In this document: piece after piece, positions 513 through 11,818 of the stretch
How the letters are laid out: each line of letters opens with the position of its first letter
Position numbering within the stretch: the stretch's first letter is position 1
Virus record (IMG/VR): IMGVR_UViG_3300018839_000001
Origin: a virus
Lineage: Duplodnaviria > Heunggongvirae > Uroviricota > Caudoviricetes
Reading direction: 5' to 3' (one strand)
Length of the DNA: 64,000 nucleotides
Notes under the pieces: generated by a model
Database searches by the model: none
What the model was told of the DNA's origin: nothing
Seen by the model: the letters and a program-made list of their open reading frames with translations, nothing else
Made by a program: the position numbers and the translations under genes

Positions 513-1265
513 TTATTCATCCTTCATGCCATTTAAAATCCAGTTATGAAAATTCGATGCAACAATACTGCGATGATAATAATGACCATAGCTCTTGTGA
601 AACCCCATATTAAAATCATCAATCATTAATGCCTTTGCATTATCTAAGTCTTTTATATTATCATAAAATAACTCTGACATTACAATCGATTCCACTCTGT
701 TTTTATTACCTAAATCAGATAGTTTAGAGGCAATCGGAACAGATTCACCTATCCAAACTAAGTTATTTACACTAGAGGATTTTCTACCTGCTTTAACAGA
801 AAGTGTTGGAGAAGCATTTAATCCAATCCCAACTGTAATAGTCGGCAGATTTCTTTCCTCCAATAATTTATTTAACATTACAATATAAGTGTTTATAAAA
901 ACTGATCTAACAAATATATCACACAAATCATCTTTAAAAGGGGTTGAATAAATGGCATAAACACAATCACCGCGAATGCCAATCTCTTTTAAATCATTAC
1001 CTGTGTCTTTCTTCAATATTTCAATAATCTCAGAGGTAAATCCTCTTATAACTTTTGCTATATCTACATCTTCCTTATCTGTAAATAAAGTAGTAGAGTC
1101 TCTTAAATCTACAAATATAGCTCCTGCCCATGCTTTATAGCCATTAGTATATGTAAATTCTTCATCCCTTGGGAATCTTTTCACTTCTTTAACCGCATCT
1201 GTTCCATCAAGTATCTCTTCTACTTTCTTTTTTCTCTCTTTGTAGTCATATCCTAAAAGTTTCAT
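513..1265 (-). CDS. pycC: Class III nucleotidyl cyclase, Pycsar pyrimidine cyclase PycC-like
   Basis: Cyclase metal-binding motifs AIFVDLRDST and GIRGDCVYA; stand-alone 250-aa cyclase abutting a PycTM-type membrane effector. Confidence 0.85.
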   Translation of the reverse strand: MKLLGYDYKERKKKVEEILDGTDAVKEVKRFPRDEEFTYTNGYKAWAGAIFVDLRDSTTLFTDKEDVDIAKVIRGFTSEIIEILKKDTGNDLKEIGIRGDCVYAIYSTPFKDDLCDIFVRSVFINTYIVMLNKLLEERNLPTITVGIGLNASPTLSVKAGRKSSSVNNLVWIGESVPIASKLSDLGNKNRVESIVMSELFYDNIKDLDNAKALMIDDFNMGFHKSYGHYYHRSIVASNFHNWILNGMKDE

Positions 1266-1835
1266 TTAACTGAATCCCCCTATGTTTACAAGCAAAGCCC
1301 CTATCATAAAAACTGATATGATGCTGACAATGCCGAAAAATGAATATTTAACGCCCTTTTTAAAAAATCGATATTTAATTGTACATATCTTTGCGTTCAC
1401 ATAAATTTGAGACAATATGTCGCTTAATTCGTTATCATTATCTTTATCTCTAATTGTAACTTTTCTTTTAAACTCTAAAAAACTGTTATTTGATATGGTT
1501 TCAAAATAATATAAAGAATCTTTATAGAGACCCTCTTCCTCTAAAATCTTTTTATCTCTAGGAATCAAAACTTTAACTAAACAATTCGAGCCATAAATAA
1601 ATAAACACCAAGAAAAAATAAAGAAAATTAAATACAGGATGTTCGAAAAATTAATATTGTTAACTATCTGTTTAAATATTTCCTTTAACATGTTTAATGA
1701 CTGATCTGACAAAAATAGAGTTAAAAACACTCCAATTATCGCCAAAACAATGGAAGCTTTAGTGTCGCAACTTTTTATCCAGTCTAAATGTCTATCTAAA
1801 CGATTGATTAAATTATCTTTGTCAATTTCGCTCAA
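1266..1835 (-). CDS. pycTM: Pycsar transmembrane effector (PycTM / former DUF5706 family)
   Basis: N-terminal LDRHLDWIKSCDTKASIVLA signature, three hydrophobic segments and QIYVNAKICTIKYRFFKKG before the last TM; TTG start with GAGG RBS; abuts the cyclase gene. Confidence 0.85.
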   Translation of the reverse strand: MSEIDKDNLINRLDRHLDWIKSCDTKASIVLAIIGVFLTLFLSDQSLNMLKEIFKQIVNNINFSNILYLIFFIFSWCLFIYGSNCLVKVLIPRDKKILEEEGLYKDSLYYFETISNNSFLEFKRKVTIRDKDNDNELSDILSQIYVNAKICTIKYRFFKKGVKYSFFGIVSIISVFMIGALLVNIGGFS

Positions 1836-1864
1836 AGCTTCAACCTCAATTCTAAATTAGCAGT

Positions 1865-1895
1865 AAAAAATCTTACCGATAAAAATCGGTAAGAT
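1865..1895 (-). terminator. Intrinsic terminator 30 bp upstream of pycTM
   Basis: Perfect 11-bp stem ATCTTACCGAT / ATCGGTAAGAT with a 4-nt loop, followed by a T-run on the minus strand. Confidence 0.75.
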
Positions 1896-2069
1896 CAAGG
1901 GACTGGCCGCATGATGTTAAAACATCTTCGGCCTTTGGCGCGTAAAAGGATGTCTCGGCAACCCTTCACACAATCATTCAGACGCAATCTGAATACTTGC
2001 AAGAACACAATGTTCTCCGAGACTGCAATATAGGAAGTGATCCATGTAATGATTAAATCATTACTGATC
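1865..2069 (-). ncRNA. Putative ~205-nt structured leader or sRNA upstream of the Pycsar operon
   Basis: ORF-free and more GC-rich than its flanks. Stems: GTAATGATT/AATCATTAC (2046-2064); GTCTCGG/CCGAGAC (1952-1958/2017-2023) enclosing ATTCAGA/TCTGAAT and AGAACA/TGTTCT; GGCCG/CGGCC with GATGTT/AACATC (1905-1933); then the terminator. Confidence 0.5.
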
Positions 2070-2076
2070 AAGTTTT

Positions 2077-2105
2077 ATTTTACCTCATTATCCAAATAAA
2101 CACAA
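2077..2105 (-). promoter_or_regulatory. Candidate sigmaA promoter for the Pycsar leader
   Basis: TTGTGT-N17-TAAAAT on the minus strand; +1 would fall near 2069, at the start of the first hairpin. Confidence 0.4.
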
Positions 2106-2234
2106 TATATTTTATTTGAATGTTCACAAATTTGTTAGTGATTTAATCCTATTTATTGGAAATGTCTTTAAACGGGGTTATTGAATATGTTAATCTTAAA
2201 GATGGTACATCAAGCTACAAGGGGGGAATGAATT

Positions 2235-2417
2235 TTGATATTTATCTTAAGGGTTTTAGGTATATCACTTATATCAATTTTCGTTATATTTATGATCGGA
2301 CAATATCTACCATTCTTAGTAGAGCCGATATGGGTTGGTCTAATTATCGCATTATTTATCTGCCTTTTTTTAGTCATAAAACTCGAGTTAAAAAAATTAA
2401 AAAACAAGAAGGAATAA
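2235..2417 (+). CDS. Small 2-TM membrane protein with Lys-rich tail (60 aa)
   Basis: GGGGGG RBS 8 nt before TTG; two hydrophobic stretches and KKLKNKKE C-terminus. Confidence 0.65.
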   Translation: MIFILRVLGISLISIFVIFMIGQYLPFLVEPIWVGLIIALFICLFLVIKLELKKLKNKKE

Positions 2418-2469: not shown

Positions 2470-3315
2470 ATGAAAAAATTACTTTTCTTATTAGTCGTAG
2501 TCACATTAAGTATTTTAGGCTTTAGTCCATCAGGAGCATTAGCCAGACAAACAACTAAGGAAAAAGACATTCAAGAAGTAAGACATTATGTTGAGAAACA
2601 AATGCCTATCTTGGAATCAGAGTTGAAACAATTATCGAAAAACTCTTCTTTGGAAGAGATTGAAGAGCTTATATCAAATCACTATAAGAAACACCCTGCC
2701 CCAAAAGCTCTTCAAAATCCAGAATTGTCTGTGTTTAATGTTTTCCCTGATAAGGTGAAAAAATACAAAAAATTTGAAGGAAAATCTTTAAACTTGAACA
2801 ACCTCATGAACGATCCAAGATCATCCTCATTAGGCGAAATGATTACTTTTGAAAACGACAACAGTAAGGTATCAGTTCTTTTAGGGGAAACTGGACATAT
2901 TAATATTCTGGAGAATAAAAAAGTGTCCTCTCCACGTCCTCAGAAAAATAAAATAGCTTTGGCTACAGGGACAGAAAGGACTACTGGAATAGGTTATGGA
3001 TTAGGTGGAGCAAAGCAATTTACCGTATGGGCAGAGGGAAACTTCCGCTATGATGGAAAGAAAGTTTCTGTAATAAGCAATGATGGAGATTGGGTAAGAC
3101 ACCTTTTCGGATCGGTTTTCACTTACACACCTAAAGGTATGGGGAAAGTAAGAGATACAAGCATAGGAAAATATAAATATAAAGAGGTTTACTCTCGCTT
3201 GTTAGTTGAAACTTTAGCTGGATTCAAGTGGGGAAATGCAGTCTTTGGAACAAAAACAGTTGAGGTCTACGTTGGATCAACTGTAAACGGAAATATTTAT
3301 GGAGGAACAAAATAA
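2470..3315 (+). CDS. Secreted hypothetical protein (281 aa)
   Basis: GAGG RBS; Sec signal peptide MKKLLFLLVVVTLSILGFSPSGALA; Gly/aromatic beta-rich C-terminal half. Confidence 0.8.
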   Translation: MKKLLFLLVVVTLSILGFSPSGALARQTTKEKDIQEVRHYVEKQMPILESELKQLSKNSSLEEIEELISNHYKKHPAPKALQNPELSVFNVFPDKVKKYKKFEGKSLNLNNLMNDPRSSSLGEMITFENDNSKVSVLLGETGHINILENKKVSSPRPQKNKIALATGTERTTGIGYGLGGAKQFTVWAEGNFRYDGKKVSVISNDGDWVRHLFGSVFTYTPKGMGKVRDTSIGKYKYKEVYSRLLVETLAGFKWGNAVFGTKTVEVYVGSTVNGNIYGGTK

Positions 3316-3341
3316 TTTTTTAAGTAAAGCCTCGCCTAAAT

Positions 3342-3380
3342 AAGAAAAGAGAGACTCACGACTAAAGTCTCTCTTTTCTT
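3342..3380. terminator. Bidirectional intrinsic terminator
   Basis: Perfect 15-bp stem AAGAAAAGAGAGACT / AGTCTCTCTTTTCTT between convergent transcription units. Confidence 0.8.
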
Positions 3381-5283: not shown

Positions 5284-7566
5284 TTACAAATAGCAAAGCT
5301 CGTTTTCGCTATTTTCTTCAACTTTTTCGACTGTTTTTTCAGACACAAAAGATTTAGTTTTATCTTCATTAAAATCGCTAAGGCACTCTTGCAAAAAGCT
5401 TCTTCTCTCCATATTTGCAAATTTTCTAATTCCATGATTAATTGCTTCTGATTGTCCTAAAACCAACATAAATTCTTTAGCACGTGAAAAACCAGTATAA
5501 ATTAGGTTTGCATTTAATTGATATTTTGATGATTTATCAATAATGACGATGACTACTTTATATTGACTACCTTGAGACTTGTGAATTGTAGTAACCCATG
5601 AATGAACGATATTCGTAAGAATTACTCCAAATTTAAATTTAACTTTAATGCCATCAAAATCAATGATAAAAACCTTTTCTTCTTCATTAATGTCTACAAT
5701 TATCCCTGTATCTCCGTTGAACACATCTGCCAAACCACCATCTGATGTTTCTACTCTATACGTATTCACTGTGTTCATCACTGAGTCTCCCACACGAAAT
5801 GTTACTTGGTTATCCTTGTTACCTACCCTCTTCTCTTTCTTGTTATCTGATGGAGGGTTCACAATTTTTTGGATTTCTTTATTAAGCTCCATTGTCCCAA
5901 GTTTTCCTTTATTTGTTGGAGTTAAGATAACAACCTCATCATGACTAAATCTCTTTAAAACATTTTTATAATTTTTAATTACTCCATCGCGAACATATTT
6001 TTGATCTGACAGCCAAAATACGCAGTCTCTGCCAAACTGGATACGACCTTCCGCTTCTTCATTAAGAAATATTTCACCATTCCTAACTTTGGTGGAGATA
6101 TCTAAAATCCCTCCATCTGCTTGTCTAAAGACTTTCTTTAACTTTGAAATTTTAATACTCAAACTATTAATGCAGTCGTATAAGAAGTTTCCAACCCCCA
6201 CACTTGGTAATTGAAAGTCATCTCCTACAAATAAAATTCGCGCATTCTCATTTTGAATTGATTTGAAGAGTTTTGACAAAATGAAAACATCACACATAGA
6301 GCTTTCATCCACAATAATAATATCCTCAGTGATAGGATTTATTGCATTTTCATCCTCTCCAAACACTCCCGTTTTACGATGAATAGTTGAAGCTTGTCTT
6401 CCAGTATAACCAGTCATAACTTTACTCGCCTTACCTGTTGGTGCTAATAATGCTGTGGTTAAACTCTTTTTGTCAATTAACTCTAATAGTATTCTTTGTA
6501 ACCAGCTCTTACCCATACCTCCTCCACCAACTAAGAATAAGATATTGTTTTCATTCCAATCATAAAAAAACTGTCTTTGATTTTCTTCCAGCTCAACATC
6601 GTTATCTTGACAATATTCATCTAAAAATGAATCTAATTCTTCTCTTGAGAACAGTTGCTTAGAAGTTGTTTTAAATTGAATCATTCTTTGAGCTATGTAA
6701 TTTTCCGCCTCAAAAACAACATCTCTTGTAAATCTTTCTCCATCAACATTTTTTACACCTTTTGCATTTCCATCTAAGCGATTTTCAATATCTTTCTTAT
6801 CAATATTTAAAAGCTCAATCGCTCTATTTAGGAGTTGTTTACGACCGATCCACGAATGACCATTAGCATTTTCTTCGCTAATAATATATCTCAAACAAGA
6901 ATCTATCCTGTGATCGGATTTCATATCATACCCAACTGCTTTTGCAATTTCATCGGCCTTCTTAAATCCTACACCTTTCACTTCTGTTAAAACATATGGA
7001 TTGGAGTTGATTTTATCAATAACAATTGATGGGTTTTTATATTCTTTGATTAGCTTAGCAATCATATTATATTTAATCCCATACTTATTACAGAAGGCTA
7101 AAACTTCACTCATATCAATATTGTCCATTACTTTCTTTTGAAGCTTTTGAAAAGACTTTTCTCCTAATCCTTTTACCTTGGTATAATCAAATTCACCCGA
7201 TTCAATCAGGTTAATAACATCTTGATCCTCTTTGTAAACAGTATAAATATTTTCAATTTGGTTTTGAGTTAGAATCGTAGACAAGAACTTCTTTTGGTCG
7301 TTAACTGTTTCAGGTTTGTCTTTTTGAATAGAGTCTACGATATAGCTACCTTTATAATTGCTAGAAGAGTCTTCTTTCACTACAACTGTGTACTCTTCAT
7401 ATAAATTTAGATTGGGCATAACTCCCTTAATTGAAATATTTCCATACTTATTCAGTTTGACTCCAGACTCTAAATAGTCTGGATGAACTTCAACTCCATA
7501 TATACTAAAGAATGTTTCATCATTAAAAAATACACGCTTCGTTGGTTTTACTCTAAGTTTAATCAC
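5284..7566 (-). CDS. recD2: RecD2-like SF1 helicase
   Basis: N-terminal OB/HhH region (GVGFKKADEIA), Walker A GGGGMGKS, motif Ia LAPTGKAS, DESSM, VGDDFQLPSV, TIHKSQGSQY, YTGFSRAK. Confidence 0.9.
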   Translation of the reverse strand: MIKLRVKPTKRVFFNDETFFSIYGVEVHPDYLESGVKLNKYGNISIKGVMPNLNLYEEYTVVVKEDSSSNYKGSYIVDSIQKDKPETVNDQKKFLSTILTQNQIENIYTVYKEDQDVINLIESGEFDYTKVKGLGEKSFQKLQKKVMDNIDMSEVLAFCNKYGIKYNMIAKLIKEYKNPSIVIDKINSNPYVLTEVKGVGFKKADEIAKAVGYDMKSDHRIDSCLRYIISEENANGHSWIGRKQLLNRAIELLNIDKKDIENRLDGNAKGVKNVDGERFTRDVVFEAENYIAQRMIQFKTTSKQLFSREELDSFLDEYCQDNDVELEENQRQFFYDWNENNILFLVGGGGMGKSWLQRILLELIDKKSLTTALLAPTGKASKVMTGYTGRQASTIHRKTGVFGEDENAINPITEDIIIVDESSMCDVFILSKLFKSIQNENARILFVGDDFQLPSVGVGNFLYDCINSLSIKISKLKKVFRQADGGILDISTKVRNGEIFLNEEAEGRIQFGRDCVFWLSDQKYVRDGVIKNYKNVLKRFSHDEVVILTPTNKGKLGTMELNKEIQKIVNPPSDNKKEKRVGNKDNQVTFRVGDSVMNTVNTYRVETSDGGLADVFNGDTGIIVDINEEEKVFIIDFDGIKVKFKFGVILTNIVHSWVTTIHKSQGSQYKVVIVIIDKSSKYQLNANLIYTGFSRAKEFMLVLGQSEAINHGIRKFANMERRSFLQECLSDFNEDKTKSFVSEKTVEKVEENSENELCYL

Positions 7567-10982: not shown

Positions 10983-11405
10983 TTGGTGGGGTCTGTTGCA
11001 ATTGACATACATAAAAAAGAGAGGGATTTCAAAGTTTTAACTTTGTCAGATGAAATGGTAGTTAAGTATTTAATTTTATTCAGAAGCAAAGTTGATACAT
11101 CCCGATTGGCAAGTGTGAATATCAATATTGATCAAGCTGGAGATATTTTTGAATTTAATCAGGAGTTAATTTCTCTATATGCCTCTCTAGATAAACTGAT
11201 TGAAAAAATTTCATTCAAGGAAAAAGATAAACAGTTTCTCAATTTATTATTTGATGGACATTCTGTGTCTGATATTATTGAAAATTTTGATTATCCAAGA
11301 ATGACAGCCTATCGAACTTTAGACAGAATCATAGCTAGGATAGTTGATACGAATGAAGAGGATTGGATCAAATCAATAAAGGTTAACTTGATTCCAACCA
11401 AATAA
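10983..11405 (+). CDS. Putative DNA-binding regulator with C-terminal HTH (sigma region 4-like)
   Basis: FKEKDKQFLNLLFDGHSVSDIIENFDYPRMTAYRTLDRII fits an HTH; TTG start with GGGGTG RBS. Confidence 0.6.
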   Translation: MVGSVAIDIHKKERDFKVLTLSDEMVVKYLILFRSKVDTSRLASVNINIDQAGDIFEFNQELISLYASLDKLIEKISFKEKDKQFLNLLFDGHSVSDIIENFDYPRMTAYRTLDRIIARIVDTNEEDWIKSIKVNLIPTK

Positions 11406-11467
11406 TTAAGGATAACTGTTAAAACGATGAGTTGTAGTGAGAAAATTGTAGAAAGGATTGTTTTTGA

Positions 11468-11818
11468 GTGAAGATTCAACTCCCCAATGGGATTAAGCTT
11501 AATCTTGAAGAAAATATCACCTTAGAACAAAAGCTTAAAAAAGTTGAAGACTTGACTAATGAATGGCGATCTGCTATAGAGCGGAATTGGGATTCCATTA
11601 CGATTAGGTTTTTCTTAGATGGATTAGCTAATTATCTTGTTTGGCACAAGGATGAAGATGATAAAAACAAGCATAATAAAGATATGATATCAAACTGGAA
11701 GATCGAGCAGATGGAAGGAAAAAGAAAGACGAATAGCATTCCATTTTCAAGTCTATCAACAATTAATAAGGAATTGTTAGGGTTGGAGGGTAATAATGAT
11801 GGCAAAAAGAAAAACTAA
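11468..11818 (+). CDS. Hypothetical phage protein (116 aa)
   Basis: ORF overlapping the next gene in an operon. Confidence 0.65.
   Translation: MKIQLPNGIKLNLEENITLEQKLKKVEDLTNEWRSAIERNWDSITIRFFLDGLANYLVWHKDEDDKNKHNKDMISNWKIEQMEGKRKTNSIPFSSLSTINKELLGLEGNNDGKKKN

What the first reader, a model, noticed from the sequence alone, without database searches (positions are those of the whole stretch)
1865..2105. Pycsar operon sits behind a ~205-nt structured leader that ends in an intrinsic terminator: attenuator- or riboswitch-like control of an anti-phage system
Seen: a minus-strand promoter candidate (TTGTGT-17-TAAAAT), an ORF-free stretch with at least six stems (one multibranch), then a perfect 11-bp hairpin + T6 only 30 bp before the pycTM TTG, leaving no room for a separate promoter. 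ACATC (1922-1926) can pair with either flanking GATGT, and TTGCA/TGCAA offers another alternative pairing, so two folds are possible. Established: Pycsar (PycC + PycTM) causes abortive infection through cCMP/cUMP. Inference: Pycsar expression needs conditional read-through (ligand, phage protein or antisense RNA), or the RNA is a separate component. I do not recognise it as a known riboswitch and know of no described RNA leader for Pycsar.
Basis: partly seen in the sequence, partly recalled or inferred. Interest (0 to 1): 0.75.

Follow-up and report, generated by a model that had tools for sequence, protein, structure and literature searches.

The report
Structured terminator-ending RNA before phage Pycsar
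A temperate-looking Bacillus phage puts a roughly 205-base, intricately folded RNA that ends in a strong transcription stop signal between the only good promoter and its Pycsar anti-phage genes; this probably keeps a self-toxic defence system at a low level, but nothing shows that it is a ligand-sensing switch.

Summary
On the minus strand there is a sigma-A-type promoter (TTGTGT-17-TAAAAT, 2105..2077), then an ORF-free RNA of about 205 nt. Its fold is far more stable than shuffles (z -6.0). It ends in a 12-bp hairpin plus U6 (1896..1865), 29 nt before the pycTM TTG at 1835. PycTM and PycC are confirmed by PADLOC.

The RNA matches no Rfam family. It is conserved in every close relative of this phage and in one diverged lineage (B. 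glycinifermentans). Compensatory changes support six helices, one of them a 7-bp pseudoknot: 95% of cells pair, against about 40% when partners are slid, and 8 pairs change on both sides.

It is not a general Pycsar feature. Loci with PycTM at or below 68% identity carry other leaders or none. Even so, 4 of 5 lineages of this Pycsar clade have some intrinsic terminator between the same conserved promoter and pycTM, built from unrelated sequences.

I found no conserved antiterminator. The 3' part of the RNA has a paralogue elsewhere in related phages, a point an earlier scan note on another genome also made.

Best reading (0.5): a cis leader that ends most transcripts early and throttles Pycsar, leaving a stable small RNA as by-product. 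Stand-alone sRNA is the main rival; a riboswitch is unlikely. No expression data could be obtained.

The parts
2077..2105 (-). Sigma-A-type promoter of the Pycsar cassette: -35 TTGTGT (2105..2100), 17-nt spacer, -10 TAAAAT (2082..2077). The transcription start is inferred near 2070.
   Evidence: Sequence. One TTGNNN-17-TAAAAT site lies at the equivalent place in win, L007, L012, L014, L018, L017 and L020. It scores 8 of 12, below the 9-of-12 cut-off of the consensus scan.
2040..2072 (-). P1: long 5' hairpin (UGAUC-A-GUAAUGAU / AUCAUUAC-AUG-GAUCA).
   Evidence: Independent MFE folds of the window and of L012 both give it. Three pairs changed on both sides between the window and L012 (hand-aligned count). 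The only change within the window lineage is in the loop.
1995..2028 (-). Core: helix B (UUGCA/UGCAA) encloses the 7-nt strand GUCUCGG (pseudoknot 5' strand) and hairpin P2a (AGAAC/GUUCU). The nucleotides AUUGCAGUCUYGGAGA and UCUUGCAAGU are invariant across lineages.
   Evidence: Alignments A2 and A8. Helices 1-3 are 100% paired. P2a has A-U, G-U and G-C at one pair.
1974..1992 (-). P3: hairpin AUUCAGA-UUGCG-UCUGAAU, a variable arm that is absent in the B. glycinifermentans version.
   Evidence: helix 4. The closing pair is A-U in the window and G-U in L006, L007 and L040.
1936..1970 (-). H4: 11-bp hairpin whose loop carries CCGAGAC. That loop pairs with GUCUCGG (2023..2017) as a 7-bp pseudoknot.
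   Evidence: L040 has six substitutions in the arms and all keep pairing, including U-A to C-G. The pseudoknot changes C-G to U-A in L012. Helix 2 is 100% paired and helix 5 is 89% paired.
1905..1933 (-). P5: two-tier hairpin GGCCGA.GAUGU-UUUA-ACAUC.U.CGGCC.
   Evidence: helix 6: 96% paired, 3 pairs changed on both sides. A paralogous copy lies about 5.2 kb downstream in relatives.
1865..1896 (-). Intrinsic terminator: 12-bp stem, UUUU loop, U6 tract. A weak promoter-like site TTGATC-17-TAAGAT (1902..1874) overlaps it.
   Evidence: (-15.3 kcal/mol). One C-G to U-A compensatory change in L012. The same stem recurs at a second site in relatives.
1836..1864 (-). 29-nt spacer carrying the ribosome-binding site GAGG, 8 nt before the TTG start.
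   Evidence: Sequence. The N-terminus aligns with homologues.
1266..1835 (-). pycTM, the Pycsar 2-TM effector (189 aa).
   Evidence: PADLOC PycTM, 3.3e-36. Pfam PF18967 scores just under its cut-off.
513..1265 (-). pycC, the Pycsar pyrimidine cyclase (250 aa).
   Evidence: PADLOC PycC, 3.4e-89.

Best explanation
The element is the 5' leader of the phage-borne pycTM-pycC operon. Host RNA polymerase starts at the cassette promoter (about 2070) and transcribes a folded RNA of about 205 nt. The fold is P1, a pseudoknotted core, P3, H4 and P5. Most transcripts stop at the strong intrinsic terminator 29 nt before pycTM. Only the fraction that reads through, whether basal or raised by some factor, becomes Pycsar mRNA. 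This keeps a membrane-disrupting effector and its cyclase at a low, non-toxic level in the lysogen. The terminated product is likely to accumulate as a stable small RNA and may have a second role.

Shown: the parts, their order, their conservation and the covariation. Inferred: the start site, the termination efficiency, read-through as the source of Pycsar mRNA, and the purpose.
For: 1. The only good promoter upstream of pycTM precedes the RNA. It is the same TTGNNN-17-TAAAAT promoter that stands before pycTM in all five lineages of this Pycsar clade, including one with a 57-nt leader and no terminator.
2. A strong terminator lies 29 nt before the start codon and the spacer holds no canonical promoter.
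3. Between the window and L006, the leader, pycTM and the 5' part of pycC form one block of 93-100% identity (2199..1100). The flanks are 72-85% identical, so the leader travels with the genes.
4. Structure is under selection. The window and L012 fold to the same architecture independently (z -6.0 and -6.6). 95% of cells pair, against 37-45% when partners are slid. Eight pairs change on both sides, against 0-2 when slid, and 0 of 500 shuffles reach this. The stem substitutions seen within the window lineage all keep pairing.
5. A-U to G-U changes fit the minus strand only.
6. Terminators of at least three unrelated sequences sit 35-41 nt before the called pycTM start in the window type, L014, L018 and L020. 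In L012 the terminator lies about 50 nt before the start that aligns with the other PycTM N-termini. This points to repeated selection for leader termination.
Against: 1. No expression data exist.
2. A plain damper would not need a conserved pseudoknotted RNA of about 170 nt.
3. The 3' part (an H4-like hairpin, P5 and the same terminator stem) has a paralogue in a non-coding region of related phages. That copy has a promoter-like site before it, and the next gene has its own extended -10-like site and ribosome-binding site. This looks like a stand-alone sRNA.
4. Pycsar loci with PycC 64-66% identical have short leaders without a terminator, so attenuation is not required for Pycsar in general.
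5. In SPbeta-like loci the 'leader terminator' is inherited from an SR4-like antitoxin RNA gene. Part of the recurrence may therefore reflect where the cassette landed.
Confidence: 0.5

Rival explanations
1. The element is a stand-alone phage small RNA gene with its own promoter and terminator. Its function is in trans (base-pairing or protein binding) and is unrelated to setting Pycsar levels. Pycsar merely sits downstream and is transcribed by leakage or from the weak promoter-like site that overlaps the terminator.
For: - Promoter, about 205 nt of conserved structure and a strong terminator are the anatomy of an sRNA gene.
- There is no antiterminator.
- A paralogous RNA with the same P5 and terminator module lies about 5.2 kb downstream in relatives. 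It has a promoter-like TTGACT-16-TATAAG site before it and is not used as a leader.
- SPbeta-like Pycsar cassettes also lie directly behind an sRNA gene, an SR4-like one.
- A weak TTGATC-17-TAAGAT site overlaps the terminator.
Against: - No target was found. Duplexes with the 5' regions of both neighbouring genes are no better than shuffles.
- The promoter is the one shared by Pycsar cassettes that lack the RNA.
- The full core was found only in front of pycTM.
- The internal promoter-like site matches 8 of 12 positions, and its -35 falls to 3 of 6 in L012.
Confidence: 0.27
2. The element is a riboswitch or protein-dependent antitermination switch. The pseudoknotted core would bind a small molecule (for example a pyrimidine nucleotide, cCMP or cUMP) or a phage or host protein, and this would decide whether the terminator forms.
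For: - The fold is complex, with invariant junction nucleotides and a pseudoknot, and a terminator follows immediately.
- In L012 alone, the 3' arm of P5 can pair with the 5' arm of the terminator (9 bp, -11.5 kcal/mol).
Against: - No antiterminator is conserved. In the window the best upstream partner of the terminator's 5' arm gives -8.3 kcal/mol, against a shuffled mean of -10.9.
- No Rfam family matched above noise in the 1.1 kb around the leader at E up to 10, PyrR and T-box included.
- The RNA is confined to two lineages.
- Other Pycsar leaders of the clade carry quite different RNAs before their terminators, which does not fit one sensed ligand.
Confidence: 0.08
3. The element is a type I antitoxin-like RNA. 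It would hold down a small membrane toxin nearby, either the divergent 60-aa 2-TM ORF (2235..2417, plus strand) or PycTM itself, by base-pairing. The analogy is SR4/bsrG.
For: - The SPbeta-like Pycsar loci carry an SR4 homologue in the same position.
- Both copies of the RNA family lie next to genes for small hydrophobic proteins.
Against: - No toxin ORF overlaps the RNA in antisense. The only plus-strand ORF is basic and is broken in relatives.
- No complementarity above shuffles was found to either neighbour's 5' region.
- The C-rich linker that could pair with the neighbour's ribosome-binding site is not conserved in L012.
Confidence: 0.05

Closest known systems
Terminator-based 5' leader attenuators of Bacillus: the pyr operon with PyrR, the trp leader with TRAP, T-box leaders and transcriptional riboswitches (named from general knowledge)
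   Same: A promoter, then a structured untranslated leader, then an intrinsic terminator just before the first gene. Expression depends on read-through.
   Different: All of these have a defined antiterminator that competes with the terminator, and a conserved binding motif. Neither is found here. The regulated genes here are a phage-borne defence system, not a metabolic operon.
SR4 antitoxin RNA of the bsrG/SR4 type I toxin-antitoxin system of SPbeta (Rfam RF01412 for bsrG; annotated in phage Goe14, OL580764.1)
   Same: It is a small RNA gene with its own promoter and a strong terminator in a Bacillus prophage. A homologue of its 3' part occupies the same position before pycTM in SPbeta-like Pycsar loci.
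   Different: The window RNA shows no sequence or Rfam similarity to SR4. No convergent toxin mRNA overlaps it.
Riboswitch-terminated transcripts that also act as small RNAs: SreA/SreB of Listeria and EutX/Rli55 (from general knowledge)
   Same: The prematurely terminated leader is itself a stable RNA that may act in trans. This would reconcile the leader reading with the sRNA reading.
   Different: Those leaders are known ligand-binding aptamers (SAM, B12). No aptamer class is recognisable here.
Protein-level regulators of defence systems: CapW or CapH/CapP for CBASS, and BrxR/WYL-type repressors (from general knowledge)
   Same: They keep a potentially self-toxic anti-phage system at low expression.
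   Different: Those are DNA-binding proteins acting at promoters. Here the proposed control is an RNA element acting at termination. I found no paper describing RNA-level control of Pycsar.

Membership tests
Pycsar (PycC cyclase plus PycTM effector) | A pyrimidine cyclase gene next to an effector gene with transmembrane helices. | tested here: met
   PADLOC PycC 3.4e-89 and PycTM 3.3e-36. The genes abut (1266 and 1265), effector first.
Transcription-attenuating leader (terminator type) | A promoter, an ORF-free leader and an intrinsic terminator directly upstream of the regulated ORF, on the same strand. | tested here: met
Transcription-attenuating leader (terminator type) | An alternative antiterminator structure that competes with the terminator and is conserved in relatives. 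| tested here: not met
   The best upstream duplex with the terminator's 5' arm is -8.3 kcal/mol, against a shuffled mean of -10.9. The 9-bp candidate in L012 has no counterpart in the window.
Transcription-attenuating leader (terminator type) | Premature 3' ends at the terminator and regulated read-through in vivo. | not testable with these tools
This needs Term-seq, Northern blots or reporter fusions.
Known riboswitch or RNA-binding-protein leader classes (Rfam 15) | A match to a curated covariance model. | tested here: not met
   No family reached its gathering score in the window apart from tRNAs. The best hit in the region is ALIL, on the opposite strand, 14.8 bits against a cut-off of 50.
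Structured non-coding RNA (conserved fold) | Base pairs kept through compensatory changes in independent sequences. | tested here: met
   46 pairs and 95.1% of cells paired, against 37-45% when slid. Eight pairs changed on both sides, with 0 of 500 shuffles as high. Only two deep lineages exist, so statistical power is limited.
Type I antitoxin RNA (SR4-like) | Antisense overlap or extended complementarity with the mRNA of a small hydrophobic toxin. | tested here: not met
   No hydrophobic ORF lies opposite. Duplexes with the neighbours are no better than shuffles.
Trans-acting small RNA gene | Its own promoter and terminator, and a defined target. | tested here: inconclusive
   The promoter and terminator are present. 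No target was identified. A paralogue exists.

The most novel reading that the evidence does not exclude
The RNA is a conditional gate. Its pseudoknotted core would sense a signal of infection or of the system's own chemistry, for example a pyrimidine nucleotide, cCMP or cUMP, or a protein of a superinfecting or induced phage that suppresses termination. Pycsar would then be switched on at the RNA level only when needed. The RNA may also belong to a small family of phage RNAs that share a 3' module (H4-like hairpin, P5 and terminator). This would be the first RNA-level control described for a cyclic-nucleotide defence system.
Probability: 0.12. Interest if true: 0.8.

Novelty: new variant of a known kind. 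Interest (0 to 1): 0.5.

Why it matters
Little is known about how cyclic-nucleotide defence systems such as Pycsar are kept harmless until needed. The regulators described so far are proteins acting at promoters.

Here a phage-borne Pycsar cassette sits behind a conserved folded RNA and a strong terminator, and sister cassettes have acquired other terminators at the same place. This suggests that premature termination is a recurrent way to dose this toxic system. It also gives a compact construct that can be tested directly: promoter, leader and terminator upstream of pycTM.

The RNA is also an uncatalogued structured RNA with a likely pseudoknot. Its narrow distribution, two lineages of phages of the Bacillus subtilis/licheniformis group, limits its general importance.

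Tried and rejected
- Rfam cmscan of the region at E up to 10, of the whole window at gathering score, and of six related loci found nothing relevant.
- blastn of the leader against GenBank phages and PLSDB plasmids gave no match.
- Pattern scans of IMG/VR and of JGI metagenomes with the conserved core found only the same phage lineage again.
- blastn of the leader in the 105 genomes of the family of Bacillus sp. dmp10 gave only short chance matches.
- The window's own genome is not held. The genomes of the related loci are not held either.
- Coding readings of the 58-aa and 40-aa ORFs were rejected because of indels in relatives.
There is only one GAUGU, and the partner is not conserved in L012.
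- A long-range antiterminator between the 5' arm of P1 and the 5' arm of the terminator was considered. It is weak (-6.3 kcal/mol) and not conserved.
- Antisense targeting of the 60-aa gene or of the pycTM 5' region shows no signal above shuffles.
- Sequestration of the ribosome-binding site by the CU-rich linker (ACUUCC) appears in the MFE of the read-through RNA. In L012 only a weak, shifted counterpart exists by eye, so this is left as untested.
- The weak BsrG Rfam hit in L018 (26 bits, E 0.017) was followed up. It reflects true SR4/bsrG homology of the SPbeta-like leaders, not of the window's RNA.
- Literature searches for Pycsar with riboswitch, leader or terminator found no description of such an RNA.

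Full report
**Setting**

The window is a large Bacillus phage genome.
- It has a tRNA cluster at 13.8-15.2 kb, a 3110-aa ORF and a long run of same-strand ORFs.
- It shows only patchy nucleotide similarity to Bacillus phages PJN02, FADO and 2S-4.
- No whole genome is held for it.
- Near-identical loci occur on a 157.6-kb contig of a Bacillus isolate, on an IMG/VR contig, and on contigs of up to 4.36 Mb.
- Relatives carry a tyrosine recombinase gene downstream of pycC. Together with the very long contigs, this suggests a temperate phage (inference).

PADLOC confirms the defence genes. PycTM lies at 1835..1266 (3.3e-36) and PycC at 1265..513 (3.4e-89), both on the minus strand.

**The observation**

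On the minus strand the order of parts is as follows.
- Promoter: -35 TTGTGT (2105..2100), 17 nt, -10 TAAAAT (2082..2077).
- About 205 nt without a credible ORF.
- A 12-bp hairpin with a UUUU loop and a U6 tract (1896..1865, -15.3 kcal/mol).
- 29 nt containing a GAGG ribosome-binding site, then the TTG start at 1835.

The leader folds far better than shuffles: -78.8 against -53.6 +/- 4.2 kcal/mol, z -5.98. The terminator is one of only three perfect hairpins of 9 bp or more with a T-rich tail in all 64 kb.

The two short ORFs that overlap the RNA are disrupted by indels in relatives.

Minus-strand transcription arriving from upstream would first meet a hairpin with a T-run at about 3365..3330. 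The RNA therefore probably needs its own promoter (inference).

There is one GAUGU and two ACAUC. A weak promoter-like site (TTGATC-17-TAAGAT, 8 of 12) overlaps the terminator.

**Relatives and conservation**

PycTM homologues were collected and their contigs fetched. The leader is present wherever PycTM is at least 76% identical.

| Lineage | Loci |
|---|---|
| Window lineage | L006/L021, L007-L011, L022, L040/L041 |
| B. glycinifermentans lineage | L012/L013 |

Between the window and L006, the stretch 2199..1100 (leader, pycTM and the start of pycC) is 93-100% identical, while the flanks are 72-85%. The leader therefore belongs to the Pycsar block.

Between the window and L012, the identities are:
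- Pycsar genes: mostly 70-90%.
- Neighbouring genes: about 60%.
- Leader: only 38-73%.

Both leaders nevertheless fold independently into the same architecture (z -6.0 and -6.6).

**Structure**

The shared parts are:
- P1, a long 5' hairpin.
- Helix B (UUGCA/UGCAA), which encloses a 7-nt strand GUCUCGG and hairpin P2a.
- P3, a variable hairpin that is absent in L012.
- H4, an 11-bp hairpin whose loop CCGAGAC is complementary to GUCUCGG.
- P5, a two-tier hairpin.
- The terminator.

RNAalifold drew GUCUCGG/CCGAGAC as a long-range stem. H4 is itself strongly supported, so the two together imply a pseudoknot.

Evidence from substitutions:
- In L040, six substitutions fall in the H4 arms and all preserve pairing, including U-A to C-G.
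- The remaining differences seen within the window lineage are in loops, or are A-U/G-U exchanges that are neutral only on the minus strand.
- In L012 the pseudoknot and the terminator each carry a C-G to U-A change.

I counted pairs on a covariance-model alignment of the five distinct sequences.

| Measure | This structure | Partners slid by 1-3 columns |
|---|---|---|
| Cells forming a standard pair | 95.1% | 37-45% |
| Pairs changed on both sides | 8 | 0-2 |

None of 500 shuffles reached the observed values. The caveats are that there are only two deep lineages and that the structure was derived from these same sequences.

**What it is not**

- No Rfam family matches.
- There is no full second copy in the window or in other Pycsar loci.
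- Pattern scans of IMG/VR and of metagenomes found only the same lineage again.
- A family-wide genome search gave only noise.
- The literature held here describes no Pycsar leader RNA.

The key riboswitch feature, an antiterminator, is missing. The best pairing of upstream RNA with the terminator's 5' arm gives -8.3 kcal/mol, weaker than the shuffled mean of -10.9. The one decent candidate in L012 has no counterpart in the window.

**Other Pycsar loci of the clade**

| Loci | Identity to the window | What lies before pycTM |
|---|---|---|
| L001-L003 | PycC 64-66% | Short leaders, no terminator |
| L014-L016, L018/L019 (SPbeta-like) and L020 | PycTM 66-68% | Different, shorter leaders that again end in a hairpin plus U-run 35-41 nt before pycTM; L018 has two in tandem |
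| L017 | PycTM 67% | 57-nt leader, no terminator |

All five lineages (window type, L012, L014/L018, L017 and L020) share one TTGNNN-17-TAAAAT promoter at the equivalent place.

The SPbeta-like leader is homologous to the 3' part and terminator of SR4. SR4 is the antitoxin RNA of the bsrG/SR4 type I system, and the toxin ORF is gone from these loci. L020 uses yet another terminator.

Terminators of at least three unrelated sequences therefore sit between the same promoter and pycTM. I read this as selection for leader termination. Part of it could instead reflect where the cassette was inserted.

**A paralogue**

In relatives, about 5.2 kb downstream of the leader and beyond the left end of this window, lies a second structured RNA-like stretch.
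- It folds well (z -6.26).
- It ends in an H4-like hairpin, a P5 homologue and the same terminator stem ATCTTACTGA/TCAGTAAGAT.
- It is preceded by a promoter-like TTGACT-16-TATAAG site.
- In L040 it is followed by a small 2-TM ORF that has its own ribosome-binding site and an extended -10-like site. In L006 the start of that ORF is deleted.

I found them independently and re-checked them here. This raises the odds that the RNAs have a life of their own.

**Mechanism**

My best reading (0.5) is a cis leader. The cassette promoter fires, most transcripts end at the terminator, and read-through supplies a small amount of pycTM-pycC mRNA. This keeps a membrane-disrupting effector and its cyclase at a safe level. 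The terminated 205-nt RNA is a stable by-product that may also act elsewhere.

Rival readings:
- A stand-alone sRNA gene with Pycsar merely downstream (0.27).
- A ligand- or protein-dependent switch (0.08).
- A type I antitoxin-like RNA (0.05). No antisense toxin ORF and no complementarity above shuffles was found.
- The rest is chance or remnant.

**Verdict**

The element is real and conserved, and it is not in Rfam or in the papers searched here. Its link to Pycsar dosage is plausible and testable. The riboswitch reading is not supported, and the family is narrow. Interest 0.5. I class it as a new variant of a known kind: a terminator-ending leader or small RNA, placed here in front of a cyclic-nucleotide defence system.

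Noticed in passing
L014:2820-2925, L018/L019:2824-2904; Goe14 locus L038:1462-1752: In SPbeta-like Pycsar loci (B. subtilis and B. velezensis records of about 129 kb) the RNA between the promoter and pycTM is a homologue of the 3' part and terminator of SR4. SR4 is the antitoxin RNA of the bsrG/SR4 type I toxin-antitoxin system. The bsrG toxin ORF is missing, as if Pycsar had replaced it.
   Followed up: partly
L006:8370-8595; L021:9744-9969; L040:about 11000-11225; L007:6331-6552: A second structured RNA-like stretch (z -6.26) lies about 5.2 kb downstream of the Pycsar leader in relatives. It shares an H4-like hairpin, P5 and the same terminator stem, and it has a promoter-like TTGACT-16-TATAAG site before it. 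It lies outside this window. The earlier scan note e1-5426637 also reports it.
   Followed up: partly
L040:about 11290-11500 (L021:10011-10160): A small 2-TM hydrophobic ORF with a GGAGGG ribosome-binding site and an extended -10-like TGATATAGT lies just after the second terminator copy in L040. In L006/L021 a deletion of about 54 nt removes its ribosome-binding site and N-terminus.
   Followed up: no
window 2235-2417 (+) and 2470-3315 (+): A divergent two-gene unit: a 60-aa 2-TM protein with a Lys-rich tail, then a 281-aa protein with a signal-peptide-like N-terminus. Neither has a Pfam or PADLOC hit, and tblastn finds no match in GenBank phages. The unit is conserved next to the Pycsar leader in all relatives.
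   Followed up: partly
window 2140-2165: A block TTTCCAATAAATAGGATNAAATCAC between the two divergent units is conserved even in the diverged L012 lineage. It could be a promoter or an operator for the plus-strand unit.
   Followed up: no
window about 3330-3365: A GAGAGACT...AGTCTCTC hairpin with T-runs on both sides lies between the 281-aa gene (+) and the upstream minus-strand genes. It looks like a bidirectional terminator.
   Followed up: no
L040:1-2595 compared with window 5284-7566: In the relative L040 the RecD/Dda-like helicase region is called as two pieces with a LAGLIDADG-type ORF between them. The window has one 760-aa ORF. This may be a homing endonuclease insertion in the relative.
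   Followed up: no
L021:9650-9745: A further short unit in the non-coding region of the relative: TTGACA-17-TATTGT, then about 60 nt ending in the hairpin ACGCCUU-UAU-AAGGCGU plus a U-run. This may be another small RNA.
   Followed up: no
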